NCBI RefSeq assembly: GCF_004010195.1
Contig: NC_057749.1
Coordinates: forward strand, 20,045,570-20,084,118
Direction: 5' to 3'
Length of the DNA stretch: 38,549 nt
DNA from: Chiloscyllium plagiosum
Lineage: Eukaryota
The notes under the pieces were generated by a model that saw only the letters and a list, made by a program, of their open reading frames with translations, was not told the DNA's origin and searched no databases. Numbering within the stretch: position 1 is the first letter of the stretch; every line of letters begins with the position of its first letter. Shown in pieces: positions 28 to 37,907 of the stretch. The translations under genes were made by a program, and so were the position numbers.

Positions 28-528
28 AAAAAGTCAGAAGTCACATAACACCAGGTTATAGTCCAATAGATTTATTTGAAATCACAAGCTTTCTGAGCTC
101 TGCTCCTTCGTCAAGTAAAACTATAGGAAAGGAAGATTGGCCGGTAGGACAGGTCATGAGGACAGTGCTGAGCTGGAAGGTTGGAACTAGGGTTAAGGTG
201 GGGGGAGGGGAAAAGAGGAAACTGGTGAAGTCCACATTGATGCCATTGGGTTGAAGTGTTCTGAGGCGGAAGAAGAGGCGTTCTTCCTCCAGGCGTCGGG
301 TGGTAGGGAGCAGCGGTGGAGGCAGCCCAGGACCTGCATGTCCTTGGCAGAGTGAGAGGGAGAGTTGAAATGTTGGGCCACAGGGCGGTGGGGTTGATTG
401 GGGCGGGTGTCCCGGAGATGTTCCCTGAAGCGCTCTGCTAGGAGGCATCCAGTCTCCCCAATGTAGAGGAGACCACATCGGGAACAACGGATACAATAAA
501 TGACATTGGTGAATGTGCAGGTGAAGGA
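28..528 (-). mobile_element. Penelope-like element 3' fragment with GIY-YIG endonuclease remnant and degenerate hammerhead
   Basis: Translation FTCTFTNVIYCIRCSRCGLLYIGET...RFREH...PVAQHFN is a PLE GIY-YIG domain with a frameshift. A terminal motif TTGACGA-A-GGAGC-AGA-GCTCA-GAAA-GCTT lies at about 86-114. Confidence 0.88.
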
Positions 529-718
529 GGTTGCATGATTCAGAACCACCACTGACCAGCTAAAGGTGACACAATGAGTTGTAACGGCACAGAAAAATGG
601 TTCCCCATTCAGTCCTGAGATTAGCATCCCTAGGGCCCCTGCAGTCACCAGTTGGGACCTCAAGCAGGCATCAGCTGTTGACACAGGGGATACTCATTAG
701 AGGCAGTGAAAGACATAC

Positions 719-880
719 CTAGGAATATACTTGCTGTAAGCCAACCCATATCTGCTGTGCTAAGGTAAAGATCACAGCGGGCAGTGGGAAGCAGGAAAGA
801 CACACACAGAATTTCAACGGCATCACTGGCATTTGCCCACCCGCAGATAACCAAGAGAGCTATGTGGAAAGTGCCAAAAC
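719..880 (-). CDS. SV2/SVOP-family MFS transporter, coding exon 3 (TM1-TM2: GFGTFHIALLVICGWANASDAVEILCVSFLLPTARCDLYLSTADMGWLTASIFLG)
   Basis: Acceptor tttttttcag, donor CTAG|gtatgt, 162 nt, phase 1-1. The peptide matches the SV2-like pattern GxGxF...D(A/G)VE...F.LP.A.CD..L....G.L....FLG. The gene continues beyond position 1. Confidence 0.9.
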
Positions 881-1053
881 CTGAAAAAAACGCAAAGAAT
901 AAAATTAATTGTGCTAATAGCAATAAAGTGCAAACCACATGGAAAACAAAATACTGCAATGCCTAAGAATAATTATCTCAAGCTCTCAGAGTTCAGGTGT
1001 CTACATTACAACTTGACCTGAAGAGTTTCTGAGCAACATACTCACAACATTAT

Positions 1054-1290
1054 CAGCGCCAGAGACCCGGGTTCAATTCCCGCCTCAGGCGACTCTCTGT
1101 GTGGAGTTTGCACATTCTCCCCGTGTCTGCATGGCTTTCCTCCGACAATCCAAAAGTGTGCAGGTTAGGTGAATTGGCCATGCTAAATTGCCCGTAGGGG
1201 AAGGGGTCTAGGTGGGTTGCGCTTCGACGGGTCGGTGTGGATTTGTTGGGCCGAAGGGCCTGTTTCCACACTGTAAGTAATCTAATCTAA
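1054..1290 (+). mobile_element. HE1-type (V-SINE) tRNA-derived SINE, 5' truncated
   Basis: B-box GGTTCAATTCC, V-domain text tgtgtggagtttgcacattctccccgtgtctg and an (aatct)n tail. 10-bp TSD aacattatca at 1046-1055 and 1290-1299. It sits in an intron of the transporter gene. Confidence 0.9.
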
Positions 1291-34269: not shown

Positions 34270-34660
34270 AGGAGAAATTATGCAAATTTTCTCTAGAATG
34301 TAGAAGATTAAGGGGTGACCTGATATTAACAGGAACAGGTAGTGTAGCTAAACCATTTCCACTGGTTGGTGATTCTAGATCCAGGGAGCATTGTCTGTGA
34401 ATTAGAGCAAACTGTTCAGGGGAGATGTTAGGCAGCACTTATATACACAAAGGGCGGTAGATGTTTGGAACTCTCACAAATGGCAGTTGATGCTGGATCA
34501 GTTGTTAATTTTAAAACTGAGTTAGGTACATTTTTGTTAAGCCAATGTATTCAGGGATATGAGCCAAAGGCAGGTATTTGGAGTTAGGCTACAGATCACC
34601 TGAAAGTGAATGGTGGAACAGGCTTAACGGCTGAATGATCTAATCCTATGTTCCTCTATT
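34270..34660 (+). mobile_element. old CR1-type LINE 3' end
   Basis: agaagattaaggggtgacctgat (RRLRGDL) and downstream CR1-like text. Confidence 0.7.
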
Positions 34661-36111
34661 GGATCTCAGGAGAAGTTCAGTACCAGAGGCTAAACTACAT
34701 TAAATGAGACAGATCTTCATTCAACTTAACACAAGATGGATGAGTGTTTGATATGGGTTTGCTTCATGATGTTTTAACCCACCAGCAGACAGACTCAGCA
34801 GAGTGGTGGATAATTACACAGCTCACTGGAGGAGGAGGCTCAATGATGGAAGAGCCCAGCAATTCAGTGCAAACATTAAGGCTGAAGCATTTGCAGCAAT
34901 CTTCAGCCAGAAGTGCTGAGTAGATGATCCATGTCAGCCTCCTCCATTGATGCTTGTTTTCAGTCAATTTAATTCAGTCCACATGAAAACAAGAATTGGT
35001 TGGAGACACTGAATTCTGCAAGGCTATGAGCCCTGACAACATTATGACAGTTGTACTGAAGACTTGTGCTCCAGAATGTGGAGCCAAGCTGTTCTCCAGA
35101 ACAGTTCTAACACTGGAAACTTTCCAATAATGTGGAAAATTACCCAGGTATGTCCAGCACACAAAAAGCAGGACAAATCTAACCCTGTCGATTACCAACT
35201 CATCAGTCTACTGTTGATCATCAGTAAAATGATGGAAGATGTCATAAATAGTGCTTCCAAGCAGCACCTGCTCAGCAATAACCTATTTGGATGGGTATAT
35301 GAATAGGAAGGGTTAAAGGGATATGGGCCAAGTGGGATTAGATTAGGTTAGTACATATGGTCGGTATGCACGAATTGGACTAAAGGGTCTATTTCCATGT
35401 TGTACATCTCTCTGACTCTATGCCTCTATAACCTACTCAGTGATACCCAGTTTGGGTTCCGCCAGGGCCACTCAGCTCCTGACCTCACTACAGCCTTAGT
35501 TCGAACATGGACAAAAGAGCTGAATTCCACAAGTGAGGTGAGAACGACAGCCATTGACATCAAGACTATATGAGTGTGGCATCAAGGAGCCCTAGCCAAA
35601 CTGGAATCAGTGGGAATCAGAGGGTAAACTCTCTGTTGGTTGGAGTCATACCTGGCACATAGGAAGATGGTTGTGGTGGTTGGAGATCAGTCATCTTAGC
35701 TCCAGGACATCTCTGCGGGGTTCCTCAGGGTAGTGTCCTAGACCTAACCATCTTCAGCTCCTTCATCACTGACCTTCCCTCCATCATAAGGTCAGAAGTG
35801 GGAATTTCTGCTGATGATTGCAGCTTTCAAGACTCCTCAGATACTAAAGCAGTCCATGTTCAAATGCAACAAGATCTAGACACTATCCAGACTTGAACTG
35901 ATAAGTGGCAAGTAACATTTGCGCCACGTAAATGCCACGTAGCAACTATCTCCAATAACAGACAATCTAACCATCACCCCTTGATATTTATTGGTGTTAC
36001 CATCACTGAATCCCCCACTATCAAATGTCTTGGAGTTATCATTGACCATAAACTCCACTGGGCTCACCAAACAAACACAGTGGCTACAAGAGCAGGTTAG
36101 AGGCTAGGAAT

Positions 36112-37640
36112 TCAAAGTTTGTGAGAAGATTTGTAGCTCGGGTGCTTGTTGTTGTGGTTCTGTTCGCCGAGCTGGGAATTTGTGTTGCAGACGTTTCGTC
36201 CCGTGTCTAGGTGACATCCTCAGTACTTTGGAGCCTCCTGTGAAGCGCTTCTGTGATCTTTCCTCCTAAATTTGTAGTGGTTGGAATCTGCCGCTTCCGG
36301 TTGTCAGTTCCAGCTGTCCGCTGCAGTGATCGGTATTTTGGGTCCAGGTCGATGTGCTTATTGATTGAATCTGTGGATGAGTGCCATGCCTCTAGGAATT
36401 CCCTGGCTGTTCTCTGTTTGGCTTGTCCTATAATAGTAGTGTTGTCCCAGTCAAATTCATGTTGATTGTCATCTGCGTGTGTGGCAACTAAGGATAGCTG
36501 GTCGTGTCATTTCGTGGCTAGTTGGTGTTCATGGATGCGGATCGTTAGCTGTCTTCCTGTTTTATCCTATGTAGTGTTTTGTACAGTCCTTGCATGGGAT
36601 TTTGTACACTACATTGGTTTTGCTCATGCTGGGTATCAGGTCCTTCATTCTGGTGAGTTGTTGTCTGAGAGTGGCTGTTGGTTTGTGTGCTGTTATGAGT
36701 CCTAGTGGTCACAGTAGTCTGGCTGTCAGTTCGGAAATGCTCTTGATGTATGATTTGGAGATGCTGGTGTTGGACTGGGGTGTACAAAGTTAAAAATCAC
36801 ACAACACCAGGTTATAGTCCAACAGGTTTAATCTTAGGCATCTGTTGATGAAATTGCGTGGGTATCTGTTTCTGGCAAATATATTGTATAAGTGTATTTC
36901 TTCCTCTTTTTGCAGTTCTGGTGTACTGCAGTGAGTTGTGGCCCTTTTGAACAGTGTTTTGATGCAACTTCTTTTGTGTGTGTTGGGGTTGTTGCTTTCG
37001 TTGTTCAGGACTTGGTCTGTGTGTGTGGCTTTCCTGTATACCTTTGTGGTGAATTCTCCATTCGGTGTTCTCTGTACCATCATGTCTAGGAATGGGTGTT
37101 GGTTGTCCTTTTCTTCCTCTCTCGTGAATCGGATTCCTGTGAGTGTGGCATTGATGATCCGGTGTGTGTTCTCTGTTCCTGTGTTTTTAATGATTACAAA
37201 GGTGTCATTCACATATCTGACCCAGAGTTTGGGTTGAATTTGCGGTAAGACTGTTTGTTCTAATCTTTGCATTACCGCTTCTGCTATGAGTCCAGAGATG
37301 GGTGAGCCCATGGGTGTGCCGTTGATTTGTTCATATATTTGGTTGTTGAATGTGAAGTGTGTTGTGAGGCACAGGTCCAGTAGTTTGAGTATGCCGTCCT
37401 TGTTGTTCACCGTCTTGTTGTCTGTTCTGTATGTCCAGCAGGTTGGCTATTGTTTCTCTGGATAGGGTTTTGTCAATAGAGGTGAACAGTGCCATTACAT
37501 CGAATGAGACCATCGAATGAGACCTTGTCTATGTGTATATTTCTAATGATGTCCAAGAATTCCTGTGTTGATTGTATAGAGTGTCTGGATCCACTGATCA
37601 GGTGTTTCAGTTTCTGCTGTAGTTCTGCTGTAGCCTGTAC
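36112..37640 (-). mobile_element. Penelope-like element, 5' truncated: RT, GIY-YIG and terminal hammerhead; inactive
   Basis: MVSFDVMALFTSI, YEQINGTPMGSPISG, WVRYVNDTF (YVDD mutated), PFLD, VYRKATHTD, and a frameshifted GIY-YIG. 11-bp TSD aggctaggaat (36101-36111 / 37641-37651). Core CTGAGGA-T-GTCACCT-AGAC-ACGGGAC-GAAA-CG-TC at 36190-36223. Confidence 0.95.
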
Positions 37641-37692
37641 AGGCTAGGAATACTGCTTTGAGTAGTTCACCTCCTGCCTCCTCAAAGCCTGT

Positions 37693-37907
37693 CGATCACC
37701 TATACGGCACAAGTCAGAAATGTGATGGAATACTCTCCACTTGCCTGGATGGATGCAGCTCCAATAACACTCAAGAAGCCATTCCTGAAGAAGGGCCTGT
37801 GCCCGAAACGTCGAATCTCCCGATCACCTATACGGCACAAGTCAGAAATGTGATGGAATACTCTCCACTTGCCTGGATGGATGCAGCTCCAATAACACTC
37901 AAGAAGC
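37693..37907 (+). repeat. 87-bp exact direct repeat (37693-37779 / 37821-37907) flanking a 41-bp insert
   Basis: cgatcacctatacggcacaag...cactcaagaagc occurs twice, identically. Confidence 0.95.
37781..37816 (+). ncRNA. minimal type I hammerhead ribozyme motif (PLE-derived)
   Basis: attc-CTGAAGA-A-GGGC-CTGT-GCCC-GAAA-CG-TC-gaat. All core nucleotides are present, with a 4-bp stem I, a 4-bp stem II and palindromic ACGT in place of stem III. Confidence 0.8.

What the first reader, a model, noticed from the sequence alone, without database searches (positions are those of the whole stretch)
86..37816. About ten minimal hammerhead ribozyme motifs from three PLE families in 38 kb
Seen: CTGANGA-stem II-GAAA-NN-TH cores in three families. 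Family A (GGGC/GCCC stem) is at 3441+, 5302-, 8576-, 8613+, 14498- and 37785+. Family B (GTTACCT/AGGTAAC-type stem) is at 10066-, 13452+ and 36190-. Family C (GGAGC/GCTCC stem, degenerate) is at 86- and 19455+. Stem II sequences differ between families while pairing is kept, and stem III is replaced by a palindrome (ACGT or AGCT). Established: PLE terminal repeats carry such minimal type I hammerheads, thought to cleave as dimers through the palindromic stem III. Inference: this genome carries a very large load of potentially self-cleaving motifs, many inside introns.
Basis: partly seen in the sequence, partly recalled or inferred. Interest (0 to 1): 0.7.

Follow-up and report, generated by a model that had tools for sequence, protein, structure and literature searches.

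The report
Abundant Penelope-type minimal hammerhead relics
The eleven motifs are real but mostly worn copies of the small hammerhead self-cutting RNA motif that Penelope-like jumping genes carry near their tail end; the kind is already known, though this genome holds more than a hundred thousand intact-looking copies.

Summary
All 11 sites exist. They belong to three repeat families with the published minimal-hammerhead layout of Penelope-like elements (PLEs): CUGANGA, one extra base, stem II closed by G10.1-C11.1, GAAA, a 4-nt palindrome (ACGU or AGCU) instead of helix III, then UH. Only 3 of 11 (3441+, 5329-, 37785+) are sequence-intact; 6 carry one disabling change and 2 are further decayed. 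Families B and C follow RT/GIY-YIG ORF remnants. Family A has no ORF link but shows PLE insertion signatures: two 3' ends about 35 nt apart (the 'tail'), and head-to-head inverted copies inside one target-site duplication. Genome-wide there are 122,700 intact and at least 232,275 near-intact motifs in 3.56 Gb; reversed-pattern controls gave 0. Two-sided changes support helices I and II in family B, weakly in C, not in A. Rfam's models report no hammerhead. Poly-A RNA covers the units on both strands, with no pile-up of ends at the predicted cut. Cleavage is untested, and so is the 'introns' claim. This is a known kind (Cervera and de la Pena 2014). The scan reached the same reading in eight other windows of this genome and in other genomes.

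The parts
38..116 (-). Family C 3' module. Degenerate hammerhead at 114->86 (UUGACGA: C3->U; G10.1.A11.1; AGCU palindrome and U17 kept).
   Evidence: a copy at L043 (minus strand, 5544) shares the TTGAC.. / ..GCTT form
196..962 (-). PLE coding remnants upstream of the family C hammerhead. ORF 196-693 carries the GIY-YIG signature (NVIYCIRCSRCGLLYIGETG...REH).
   Evidence: Pfam GIY-YIG E=2.2e-4, 21.9 bits, below the 22.6 cut-off; tblastn and translations; alignment
3322..3531 (.). Family A head-to-head inverted pair. The long arm 3322-3442(-) lacks the CUGANGA box. The short arm 3440-3531(+) holds an intact hammerhead at 3441-3468. The pair is flanked by the target-site duplication AAATAGATGAATA (3309-3321 and 3532-3544).
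   Evidence: folds as a hairpin of -189.4 kcal/mol; weak sub-threshold miRNA-model hits
5237..5338 (-). Single family A unit (short form) with an intact hammerhead at 5329->5302.
   Evidence: MFE -22.9, hammerhead-compatible fold -19.9 kcal/mol
8485..8698 (.). Family A inverted pair. Arm 8485-8605(-) has its hammerhead at 8602->8575 (C.A mismatch in stem II). Arm 8610-8698(+) has its hammerhead at 8613-8640 (U.C mismatch in stem II).
10021..10228 (-). Family B (subfamily B3) 3' end, with 48 aa of ORF remnant. Hammerhead at 10099->10066 has G at C3.
   Evidence: C3G abolished cleavage in the Anolis PLE hammerhead (PMC11167929, passages)
12791..13527 (+). Family B (B1) copy. An inverted 5' piece lies at 12791-12923(-). 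The sense part 12926-13527(+) holds the GIY-YIG ORF running into the hammerhead at 13452-13485. Helix III is ACAU (no longer palindromic). The copy ends at the short 3' site (+76).
14446..14658 (.). Family A (A2 subfamily) inverted pair. Arm 14446-14533(-) has its hammerhead at 14525->14498 (G.G mismatch in stem II, U17). Arm 14542-14658(+) starts at +13 and lacks the CUGANGA box.
16990..17121 (.). Rearranged family A pair without a complete hammerhead.
19457..19534 (+). Family C 3' module. The hammerhead at about 19455-19483 is dead: two changes in the first box, and GAAA has become AAAT.
   Evidence: not within 5 mismatches of the family template
36115..37626 (-). Family B (B2) copy: RT remnant (36793-37446), then GIY-YIG region (36210-36796), then hammerhead 36223->36190, then a 3' stem-loop AGCUCGG/CCGAGCU and the tail.
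   Evidence: Pfam RVT_1 E=7.1e-6, 26.3 bits, below the 29.6 cut-off
37780..37820 (+). Intact hammerhead with a family A stem II and loop CCUG at 37785-37812. Helix I is 4 bp (CAUU/AAUG). The downstream sequence differs from A1/A2, so this is a separate sub-lineage.
   Evidence: the same loop variant is 13 of the first 100 intact matches listed

Best explanation
The motifs are the minimal type I hammerheads (min-HHRs) of Penelope-like retroelements, and each sits at the head of the element's 3'-terminal module.

Layout of the module (shown from the sequences):
- A 5' edge lies 1-10 nt upstream of CUGANGA.
- The hammerhead has one unpaired base after A9, stem II of 4-6 bp, and ACGU or AGCU in place of helix III.
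- A stem follows that encloses an AC-rich loop. Short copies end in that loop.
- A further tail of about 35 nt follows, and long copies end after it.

How the copies arose (inferred by analogy with the Anolis Poseidon element, not shown here):
- The PLE reverse transcriptase starts internally at one of two sites in that 3' region and copies towards the RNA 5' end.
- Extension from both cut DNA strands, or snap-back of the cDNA, gives head-to-head inverted pairs inside one target-site duplication.

What the hammerhead does (inferred from published work on other PLE and amphibian hammerheads, not shown here):
- The RNA could cut only after GUC, GUU or CUA, and only if two sense copies pair through the palindrome to build helix III.
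- An inverted partner cannot provide that second copy. It locks the motif in a long hairpin instead.

State of the copies in this window: most are dead relics. The commonest defects are CpG decay (ACGU to ACAU or AUGU, CGAAA to UGAAA or CAAAA) and stem II mismatches.
For: Shared architecture in three otherwise unrelated families:
- CUGANGA + extra base + G10.1-C11.1 stem + GAAA + palindrome + UH is found in all three.
- These are the features Cervera and de la Pena list as diagnostic (PMC4209133, text parts 1-2 read).

More than chance:
- The strict descriptor gives 3 hits against 0.01 in shuffles.
- Genome patterns give 133,597 / 57,241 / 41,437 copies at up to 2 mismatches and 93,494 / 18,117 / 11,089 at 0 mismatches for A / C / B. 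Every reversed-pattern control gave 0.

PLE link:
- Family B sites at 10099-, 13452+ and 36223-, and family C site 114-, directly follow ORF remnants.
- The B2 copy has RVT_1 then GIY-YIG on one strand.
- GIY-YIG is hit at the same place in 6 of 11 genomic ORFs, all below the cut-off at 17.5-21.2 bits against 22.6. The VIY...YIG...R..E signature is visible in the alignment.
- 111,762 first-look candidates were found for the B ORF; 150 were scored.

Poseidon-like detail:
- A9-U-G10.1 spells ATG in 43 of 44 B copies. That frame is open to +78 in 40 of 44, against 3 and 0 for the other two frames.

Tail signature (coordinates relative to C3 = 1):
- B 3' ends: 22 at +75-79 and 21 at +105-114, of 52. 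A 3' ends: 21 at +80-99 and 20 at +110-134, of 45.
- Inverted pairs lie within a single TSD in 5 of 5 inspected.
- Usually only one arm carries the tail, as in Craig et al. 2021 (PMC8557442, passages).

Orientation:
- In the unbiased 138.5 kb sample, A has 6 head-to-head pairs among 22 events and C has 3 among 13, with 0 direct or tail-to-tail neighbours within 60 nt.
- Among listed intact motifs, (-,+) versus (+,-) neighbours within 3 kb are 14 vs 0 for B and 10 vs 1 for C. I counted these by eye on the lists.

Covariation:
- In B, 87.1% of cells are paired against 23-38% when slid. The score is 0.163 against 0.124 +/- 0.008, reached by 0 of 500 shuffles.
- Pair 2.3-1.3 reads CG 33, GC 4. Pair 10.3-11.3 reads UA 34, UG 5, CG 5, none unpaired.
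- Exact genomic copies show the series GUUACC/GGUAAC, GUUACC/GGUGAC, GUCACC/GGUGAC.

RNA:
- Run X19 (poly-A, raw reads) covers family A units, with zero depth on the unique DNA between them. 96% of what was laid runs on into unlike flanks.
- All three arms show the same 1.5-2.3-fold orientation excess.
Against: - Rfam reports no hammerhead family at gathering score or at E up to 10. This is expected for motifs without a helix III hairpin, but it is still a failed standard test.
- Family A shows no covariation at all (score 0.085 against 0.086 shuffled). Its helix I is poor: 66% of cells paired, and the middle pair is unpaired in 17 of 26.
- Helix I is only 3 bp in B and C, shorter than the published 4-5 bp.
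- No family A copy was seen behind a PLE ORF: 0 of 6 in the window, and 39 of 45 sampled arms start within -10..+14 of C3.
- The GIY-YIG and RVT_1 hits on the PLE ORFs are all below Pfam's curated cut-offs.
- No pile-up of molecule starts or ends was reported anywhere on the laid stretch, including the predicted cut sites (table 6). The library is poly-A single-cell and only about 2% of the run was read, so this is weak.
- Predicted co-folding of two A units pairs a different 13-nt quasi-palindrome (GAAACGUCGAUUC), not the ACGU helix III.
- Published min-HHRs cut poorly in vitro. The Anolis one needed its protein and was dispensable for insertion in vitro.
Confidence: 0.85

Rival explanations
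1. The short A and C modules are not dead-on-arrival truncations. They are a self-propagating, SINE-like non-autonomous element. An RNA whose 5' end lies just upstream of the hammerhead (for example from a start site in the pLTR) is copied from the internal RT start sites, so the minimal mobilisable unit is hammerhead plus 3' stem-loop. The hammerhead would then serve as part of the template that the PLE protein recognises, or as a marker of the 5' end, and not mainly as a nuclease.
For: - The 5' edge is sharp. All 28 family A arms in the unbiased sample start between -8 and +21 of C3, and 16 of 16 family C arms start between -14 and +22. In the larger samples 39 of 45 A and 13 of 14 C start within about 10-14 nt of C3. 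Ordinary 5' truncation should scatter.
- There are 93,494 intact A motifs but no ORF-bearing A copy was seen.
- L004 has a TSD (ATACCAGATT) that brackets a unit beginning one base before CUGAAGA.
- In Penelope and Chlamys the pLTR holds the transcription start (PMC8557442, passages).
- The Anolis hammerhead is protein-assisted and sits beside the RT start region.
- A 2026 preprint argues that animal retrozymes derive from PLE pLTRs (abstract and passages).
Against: - No transcription start was mapped. The RNA lay shows both strands and no pile-up of starts.
- A pause or template switch of the RT at the structured hammerhead, or cDNA snap-back, would also give a sharp edge.
- Family C does have ORF-bearing copies (window 196-693), so the short forms could simply be its truncated products.
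- Earlier follow-ups of sibling windows read them as dead-on-arrival copies.
Confidence: 0.3
2. Family A is the 3' tail of a LINE or SINE read on the opposite strand, with GGGCAUAAGCCC as its terminal recognition hairpin. The hammerhead on the complementary strand would then be a coincidence.
For: - One end of the unit is fixed (...CCCTTCTTCAGG(AATG)) and the other end varies, as in 5'-truncated LINE/SINE copies.
- No ORF is linked to family A.
- There is no covariation within A.
Against: - The 'variable' end is not scattered. It is bimodal about 35 nt apart (21 and 20 of 45), the same pattern as in family B, whose strand is fixed by its ORF.
- No copy extends beyond about +135.
- On this reading A pairs would be tail-to-tail, unlike the ORF-anchored B and C pairs, which are head-to-head.
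- The motif meets every position-specific min-HHR feature, including the extra base and the palindrome.
- The variable positions among 93,494 intact copies are N7 and loop II, where a hammerhead tolerates change.
Confidence: 0.04
3. They are non-LTR retrozymes: tandem head-to-tail repeats whose hammerheads cut out a unit that is circularised and retrotransposed.
For: - They carry type I hammerheads with a weak helix III that need dimers, in short non-coding units of 95-135 nt.
- Retrozymes coexist with PLEs in other animals (PMC7229834, passages).
- One direct family C pair lies 355 nt apart in the list.
Against: - No direct tandem lies within 60 nt among 22 A and 13 C insertion events.
- Copies are dispersed singles or inverted pairs with their own TSDs.
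- The motifs lack the loop 1-loop 2 contacts and the helix III of canonical retrozyme hammerheads, and Rfam is silent.
Confidence: 0.05
4. The motifs are chance matches inside palindromic repeats (MITE-like or miRNA-like hairpins) and have nothing to do with hammerheads.
For: - The family A pairs are long perfect hairpins that give weak miRNA-model hits (best E=7.4e-5, far below gathering scores).
- The relaxed descriptor has a real background: 14 hits in the reversed control against 55 observed.
Against: - Three unrelated families keep the same boxes, extra base, G-C closing pair, palindrome and UH at fixed spacing.
- Reversed-pattern controls are 0 against tens of thousands of hits.
- Two of the families follow PLE ORFs.
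- 16 of 22 family A insertions are single copies and not hairpins.
Confidence: 0.02

Closest known systems
Minimal hammerheads (min-HHR) in the pLTRs of metazoan Penelope-like elements (Cervera and de la Pena 2014, PMC4209133; text parts 1-2 read)
   Same: They share the conserved boxes, an unpaired base between A9 and 10.1, the G10.1-C11.1 pair, palindromic 15.2-16.2 with no helix III hairpin, and several sequence families per genome with compensatory changes. Mostly single dispersed copies, plus pairs on opposite strands, were already noted there.
   Different: Helix I is shorter here (3 bp in B and C; 2 bp, then a U.U mismatch, then 1 bp in most of A) than the published 4-5 bp. Stem II of family A is 4 bp, against the 7-8 bp typical of Schistosoma. 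The paper called about 4,000 (coelacanth) and about 9,000 (Xenopus) motifs remarkable. Here 122,700 are intact and at least 232,275 are within 2 mismatches.
Poseidon PAc of Anolis carolinensis (Frangieh et al. 2024, PMC11167929; passages read)
   Same: In family B the hammerhead overlaps the ORF start (A9-U-G10.1 = AUG), and the cut site is 28 nt from the A of the AUG. There are two alternative 3' ends about 35 nt apart around an AC-rich stem-loop (the 'tail'). Inverted copies fit a protein that extends both DNA strands.
   Different: Nothing was tested biochemically here. Families A and C do not place an AUG at that spot. Most A and C copies stop at the hammerhead's 5' edge and do not continue into an ORF.
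Canonical insertion anatomy of EN+ PLEs (Craig et al. 2021, PMC8557442; passages read)
   Same: It shows heavy 5' truncation, an inverted 5'-truncated copy abutting the 5' end, a 30-40 bp tail often at one end only, and the hammerhead near the 3' end or in the pLTR.
   Different: The truncation point is nearly constant here, at the hammerhead's 5' edge. As a result many pairs are near-perfect fold-back hairpins of about 170-280 bp. Copy numbers exceed the 'tens of thousands' called exceptionally high there for Naiads, which lack hammerheads.
Non-LTR retrozymes with canonical type I hammerheads (Cervera and de la Pena 2020, PMC7229834, passages; Li et al. 2026 preprint, abstract and passages)
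   Same: They are short non-coding units with a type I hammerhead whose weak helix III calls for dimers. They are proposed to derive from PLE pLTRs and to be mobilised by PLE enzymes. The axolotl holds 126,247 motifs.
   Different: Those are tandem head-to-tail arrays giving circular RNA. Here the copies are dispersed singles or inverted pairs, with no tandem in the sample. Density here is about 34 intact motifs per Mb, against about 4.5 per Mb in the 28.2 Gb axolotl.
Rfam hammerhead families (type I/III, HH9, HH10, II; family names recalled, not shown by a call)
   Same: They share the same catalytic boxes and the same cleavage triplet.
   Different: No match came back at gathering score or at E up to 10. 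The helix III hairpin and the loop-loop contacts those models expect are missing.

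Membership tests
PLE min-HHR (Cervera and de la Pena 2014) | Catalytic boxes CUGANGA and GAAA, with the cleavage triplet ending UH | tested here: met
   Met at family level: 93,494 (A), 18,117 (C) and 11,089 (B) genomic copies have every constrained position intact, with controls at 0. In the window 8 of 11 sites keep both boxes and 3 of 11 pass the full strict descriptor.
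PLE min-HHR (Cervera and de la Pena 2014) | One unpaired nucleotide between A9 and 10.1 | tested here: met
   It is A in families A and C and U in family B, and the column is invariant in all three alignments.
PLE min-HHR (Cervera and de la Pena 2014) | G10.1-C11.1 closing pair of helix II | tested here: met
   B: GC 28, GU 15, other 1 of 44. A: GC 19, GU 6, other 1 of 26. C: GC 4, GU 4, other 1 of 9. The GU cells fit CpG decay of ...CGAAA.
PLE min-HHR (Cervera and de la Pena 2014) | Palindromic 15.2-16.2 with no helix III hairpin | tested here: met
   ACGU in A and B, AGCU in C. Cells paired: 98.1% (A), 85.2% (B), 100% (C).
PLE min-HHR (Cervera and de la Pena 2014) | Families with covariation or compensatory changes in the helices | tested here: inconclusive
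   B: yes, with two-sided changes at 2.3-1.3 and 10.3-11.3 and a score above 500 of 500 shuffles, though this reflects few independent events. C: one helix I pair reads CG 4, UG 3, UA 2, not significant. A: none. Across families, three different stem II sequences all pair.
PLE min-HHR (Cervera and de la Pena 2014) | Helix I of 4-5 bp | tested here: not met
   B: 3 bp (the fourth pair is unpaired in 31 of 44). C: 3 bp. A: C-G, U-A, U.U, A-U (middle pair unpaired in 17 of 26). Only the 37785+ lineage has 4 bp.
PLE min-HHR (Cervera and de la Pena 2014) | Location in the pLTR or 3' end of an element encoding RT plus a C-terminal GIY-YIG endonuclease | tested here: inconclusive
   Met for B (3 of 3 window sites, and RVT_1 then GIY-YIG in the B2 copy) and for C at 114-, although all Pfam scores are below the curated cut-offs. 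Not met directly for A, where 0 of 6 sites follow an ORF. A is placed by its tail, TSD and inverted-copy anatomy only.
PLE min-HHR (Cervera and de la Pena 2014) | Self-cleavage, as dimers | not testable with these tools
The RNA lay gave no pile-up of ends at the predicted cut, which is weak either way.
Canonical type I hammerhead (Rfam models) | Match to a curated covariance model (helix III hairpin, loop 1-loop 2 contacts) | tested here: not met
   No hammerhead family was reported at gathering score or at E up to 10 over the whole window, both strands.
Non-LTR retrozyme | Head-to-tail tandem repeats bounded by hammerheads | tested here: not met
   There were 0 direct neighbours within 60 nt among 22 A and 13 C insertion events in 138.5 kb.
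EN+ Penelope-like element insertion | Optional 30-40 bp tail, meaning two alternative ends | tested here: met
   B: 22 ends at +75-79 and 21 at +105-114, of 52. A: 21 at +80-99 and 20 at +110-134, of 45. C shows only one class (13 of 14 at +65-94).
EN+ Penelope-like element insertion | Inverted 5'-truncated copy adjacent to the 5' end, within one target-site duplication | tested here: met
   TSDs flank whole pairs at window 3322-3531 and in L002, L003, L007 and L008. Pairs are 6 of 22 A events and 3 of 13 C events, all head-to-head.

The most novel reading that the evidence does not exclude
The 95-135 nt modules of families A and C, which begin within a few bases of the hammerhead's 5' edge, are a self-sustaining SINE-like parasite of the PLE machinery and not dead truncated copies. 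On this reading the minimal mobilisable RNA is hammerhead plus the AC-rich stem-loop, and the hammerhead defines or protects the template's 5' end or docks the PLE protein. That would explain why a ribozyme that barely cuts is kept in more than 10^5 copies, and why fold-back pairs form precisely at it.
Probability: 0.25. Interest if true: 0.55.

Novelty: new member of a known kind. Interest (0 to 1): 0.25.

Why it matters
The role of hammerheads in Penelope-like elements is still open. Published motifs cut poorly, and the Anolis one needs its protein yet is dispensable for insertion in vitro. This genome offers 122,700 sequence-intact motifs in three families, one per 29 kb, several-fold denser than the axolotl's 126,247 tandem hammerheads. 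It also shows a nearly constant 5' edge at the hammerhead and a precise fold-back junction. That makes it a large natural data set for asking what the motif is selected for: cleavage, defining the template's end, or binding the protein. For annotation, these units explain many perfect hairpins that could be mistaken for MITEs or miRNA precursors, and Rfam-based pipelines will miss all of them. As a discovery it is ordinary: the kind was described in 2014, and the scan has already followed up the same families in eight other windows of this genome.

Tried and rejected
- **Rfam cmscan at gathering score and at E up to 10:** no hammerhead family was reported. The only hits were a tRNA and weak miRNA-hairpin and other sub-threshold matches.
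- **Genome search with window 37450-37950, to see whether the 37785+ lineage extends upstream:** all 40 scored matches were the neighbouring B2 element (query 1-177) or the window itself, so it was uninformative.
- **Profile of 11 PLE ORFs against PDB sequences:** best E = 0.16, to unrelated proteins, so no help. Pfam on single ORFs stays below the cut-offs.
- **A larger random genome sample (two requests of 200 kb):** Two requests of 50 kb were served, and later loci could not be cut. Family statistics therefore rest on about 270 kb of held DNA plus whole-genome pattern counts.
- **The look-up of sequencing runs:** no RNA holder was listed among the indexed runs. Two raw-read RNA runs came in only through the same species label.
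- **Run X20:** 0 reads were laid, so it is no test.
- **Co-folding two family A units:** the predicted dimer uses a different quasi-palindrome, not the hammerhead helix III. Energy models do not capture hammerhead tertiary folding, so I give this little weight.
- **An ORF starting in family A or C:** one frame of A is open in 23 of 31 near-identical copies. That is what chance allows for 90 nt, so I rejected it as evidence.
- **My early impression that more than half of family A copies are inverted pairs:** it came from the pattern-selected loci (5 of 8). The unbiased sample gives 6 of 22.
- **Not done:** a cross-family covariance model, because MAFFT cannot align the different stem II lengths; a tandem-spacing pattern search; and any test of the 'introns' claim.
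- **Literature searches for this scale or this animal group:** I found no min-HHR count for cartilaginous fishes. The supplements of the 2014 and 2020 papers and of the 2026 preprint were not opened and may hold such counts.

Full report
**1. Observation**

The window is AT-rich repeat-laden DNA (GC 0.40-0.47) from a 3.56 Gb assembly.

The loose pattern CTGANGA-N4-30-GAAA occurs 13 times, against 4.43 +/- 2.12 in 100 dinucleotide shuffles, none of which reached 13.

My strict descriptor requires both boxes, an optional extra base, a perfect stem II of at least 4 bp, a palindromic helix III and UH. It finds three sites (3441+, 5329-, 37785+), against a mean of 0.01 in 100 shuffles and 0 in the reversed window.

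The other eight sites are decayed:
- One stem II mismatch each at 8602-, 8613+ and 14525-.
- An extra mismatch at 36223-.
- ACAU instead of ACGU at 13452+.
- G for C3 at 10099-.
- A dead copy at 19455+.

Rfam reports no hammerhead family at gathering score or at E up to 10. It sees only a tRNA and weak miRNA-like hairpins where family A forms long palindromes.

**2. What the three families are**

Intact forms were recovered from the genome:

| Family | Intact form |
|---|---|
| A | CUGANGA-A-GGGC-NNNN-GCCC-GAAACGUC |
| B | CUGANGA-U-GUYACC-N6-GGKRAC-GAAACGUH |
| C | CUGAUGA-A-GGAGC-NNN-GCUCC-GAAAGCUA |

All three show the features that Cervera and de la Pena (2014; text parts 1-2 read) give as diagnostic of PLE min-HHRs:
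- the G10.1-C11.1 pair;
- palindromic 15.2-16.2 with no helix III hairpin.

The variable positions among tens of thousands of intact copies are N7 and loop II, which is where a hammerhead tolerates change.

**3. Link to Penelope-like elements**

In the window, tblastn with the local ORFs places coding remnants directly upstream of four motifs: 10099- (10086-10223), 13452+ (12815-13465), 36223- (36210-37446) and 114- (196-693).

- The B2 copy carries RVT_1 (E=7.1e-6) followed on the same strand by the GIY-YIG region.
- GIY-YIG is hit in the window ORFs (E=2.2e-4 and 2.1e-3) and in 6 of 11 ORFs from genomic loci.
- All of these hits are below Pfam's cut-offs. The VIY...YIG...R..E signature is plain in the alignment.
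- A profile search of solved structures gave nothing.
- The family B ORF had 111,762 first-look candidates in the genome. Of these, 150 were scored, and every listed match had E at or below 1e-84.
- In family B, A9, the extra U and G10.1 spell ATG in 43 of 44 copies. That frame stays open to +78 in 40 of 44, against 3 and 0 for the other frames.
[quoted passage not shown] 2024, passages).

**4. Insertion anatomy** (coordinates relative to C3 = 1)

| Family | HSPs spanning the core | 3' ends | 5' starts |
|---|---|---|---|
| B | 52 | 22 at +75-79, 21 at +105-114 | 42 extend at least 60 nt upstream (loci chosen by ORF, so biased) |
| A | 45 | 21 at +80-99, 20 at +110-134 | 39 within -10..+14 |
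| C | 14 | 13 at +65-94 | 13 within -10..+9 |

(All.)

- Two ends about 35 nt apart are the published PLE 'tail'.
- The short end lies in the AC-rich loop of a stem: A is GGAUGCUG/CAGCAUCU and B2 is AGCUCGG/CCGAGCU. B1 has AGCUCAG/CUGAGCU, a two-sided change relative to B2.
- Inverted pairs are single insertions. One target-site duplication brackets the whole pair at window 3322-3531 (AAATAGATGAATA) and in L002, L003, L007 and L008. Usually only one arm has the tail, as drawn for PLEs by Craig et al. 2021 (passages).
- In the unbiased 138.5 kb sample, family A shows 22 insertion events (6 head-to-head pairs and 16 singles). Family C shows 13 (3 pairs and 10 singles). No direct or tail-to-tail neighbours lie within 60 nt.
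- Among listed intact motifs, neighbours within 3 kb in (-,+) order versus (+,-) order number 14 vs 0 for B and 10 vs 1 for C. I counted these by eye on the lists.
- Many family A pairs have the exact junction ...GGGCAUAAGCCC-UGAAGAA-GGGCUUAUGCCC.... That is what self-priming of a cDNA ending at ...CUUCAGG would give. This is my inference. Priming on both DNA strands, shown in vitro for the Anolis element, is the alternative.

**5. Family A's strand**

Because one end is fixed and the other varies, I considered that family A might be a LINE or SINE tail read backwards. I reject this reading (about 4%) for five reasons:
- The variable end is bimodal, as in the ORF-anchored family B.
- No copy runs beyond about +135.
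- Pairs would be tail-to-tail, unlike B and C.
- The motif meets every positional min-HHR feature.
- In poly-A RNA (run X19), all three laid arms show the same 1.5-2.3-fold orientation excess. Depth for first mate on + versus on - was 147.9 vs 65.4 (left arm), 31.8 vs 60.8 (right arm) and 38.2 vs 26.1 (single minus-strand copy). If the first mate is antisense to the RNA, as the tool says is usual, this is the hammerhead-sense strand. The library chemistry is not known to me, so this last point is weak.

**6. Structure support**

| Family | Cells paired | When slid | Covariation score vs shuffled | Two-sided changes |
|---|---|---|---|---|
| B | 87.1% | 23-38% | 0.163 vs 0.124 +/- 0.008 (0 of 500 shuffles reach it) | 2.3-1.3: CG 33, GC 4, UG 2, UA 1; 10.3-11.3: UA 34, UG 5, CG 5, none unpaired |
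| C | 87.9% | 26-46% | 0.144 vs 0.120 +/- 0.021 (98 of 500, not significant) | one helix I pair: CG 4, UG 3, UA 2 |
| A | 84.6% | 15-47% | 0.085 vs 0.086 | none |

- For B, the two-sided changes trace back to few subfamily events, and relatedness inflates such tests.
- For A, helix I is poor: 66% of cells are paired and the middle pair is unpaired in 17 of 26.
- Helix I is only 3 bp in B and C, shorter than the published 4-5 bp.
- The strongest argument is therefore across families: three unrelated stem II sequences of 4, 5 and 6 bp all pair between invariant boxes.

**7. Load**

| Family | Within 2 mismatches | Intact (0 mismatches) |
|---|---|---|
| A | 133,597 | 93,494 |
| C | 57,241 | 18,117 |
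| B | 41,437 | 11,089 |
| Sum | 232,275 | 122,700 |

- Every reversed-pattern control gave 0.
- The intact count is about one per 29 kb.
- The sample suggests several-fold more decayed copies (A about one per 6 kb). That figure is an extrapolation from 138.5 kb.
- In print I found about 4,000 and about 9,000 min-HHRs called remarkable, about 37,000 copies of hammerhead-less Naiads, and 126,247 canonical tandem hammerheads in the 28.2 Gb axolotl.
- The absolute number is therefore matched elsewhere, but the density is several-fold higher here and the copies are dispersed.

**8. Function**

- Nothing here shows cleavage.
- A single family A unit keeps stem II in its minimum-energy fold (-22.9 kcal/mol). 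A hammerhead-compatible fold lies 3 kcal/mol above it.
- The pair at 3322-3531 folds into a -189.4 kcal/mol hairpin that buries the motif.
- No tandem sense copies lie together in the window, so cis dimers are not available at these loci.
- The RNA lay reported no place where many molecules begin or end. Frangieh et al. likewise found no reads ending at the cut site in Anolis.
- Published min-HHRs cut weakly even as dimers.
- I therefore commit to this reading: relics of the PLE 3' module, whose hammerhead acts, if at all, in the element's own RNA as a dimer or with its protein. The nearly constant 5' edge at the hammerhead remains unexplained. The SINE-like reading of the short modules (about 25-30%) is the boldest reading not excluded.

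**9. Verdict**

This is a correct catch of a known kind. The scan has already followed up eight sibling findings in this genome, and several in other genomes, with the same reading, and my tests agree independently. The 'introns' inference was not tested.

Noticed in passing
window 34182-34255 (+): A tRNA-Arg (anticodon CCT) is found by both Rfam (43.3 bits) and ARAGORN. I did not examine whether it is a working gene or the head of a SINE.
   Followed up: partly
window 3399-3492, 8551-8665, 14481-14574: The family A inverted pairs are near-perfect hairpins that give sub-threshold matches to miRNA precursor models (best E=7.4e-5). They could be mis-annotated as miRNA or MITE loci, and they could yield double-stranded RNA if transcribed.
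   Followed up: partly
window 36115-36190 (-); L016 (minus copy): The 3' stem around the short-end site differs between B1 (AGCUCAG/CUGAGCU) and B2 (AGCUCGG/CCGAGCU) by a two-sided A-U to G-C change. This hints at a conserved stem-loop where reverse transcription is thought to start.
   Followed up: partly
window 5237-5338 (-); L043 about 7130-7239 (-): In predicted folds the 5' edge of the short units pairs with their 3' end. In A, CUGAAGA pairs with UUUUCAG at the short-end site. In C, AAUCAC pairs with GUGAUU. This panhandle competes with the hammerhead fold. It may be chance.
   Followed up: no
window 3460-3476 and every family A copy: GAAACGUCGAUUC is a 13-nt quasi-palindrome centred one base off the ACGU helix III palindrome. 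Predicted dimers use it in place of the hammerhead register.
   Followed up: no
window 12791-12923 (-) next to 12926-13527 (+): The B1 copy has its 5' piece (-650..-515) inverted against the rest (-525..+76), an internal inversion like twin priming. For this reason the first 36 residues of the ORF I used as a query found no relatives.
   Followed up: partly
window 10254-10882, 18074-18751, 24861-25382 (-), and repeats D1-D17: There are many fragments of a LINE with clear RVT_1 matches (E down to 9.4e-20) and a shared 3' region. I recognise it from memory as CR1-like, which I did not test. It is unrelated to the hammerhead families but interleaved with them.
   Followed up: no
L042:9786 (+): A single motif reads CUGAUGA-A-AGGUC-AGC-GACCU-GCAAAGUU, with a fourth stem II type. 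It may be a decayed member of a further family.
   Followed up: no
window 36784-36832 (-): A 49-nt piece of the family C 3' module (+41..+89, 94% identity), without its hammerhead, lies inside the B2 element's coding region. It is either a nested insertion or a shared segment.
   Followed up: no
window 11652-11951: Short tandem repeats with periods of about 18-21 and 44 nt (AGGAATGGAG-type), of unknown origin.
   Followed up: no
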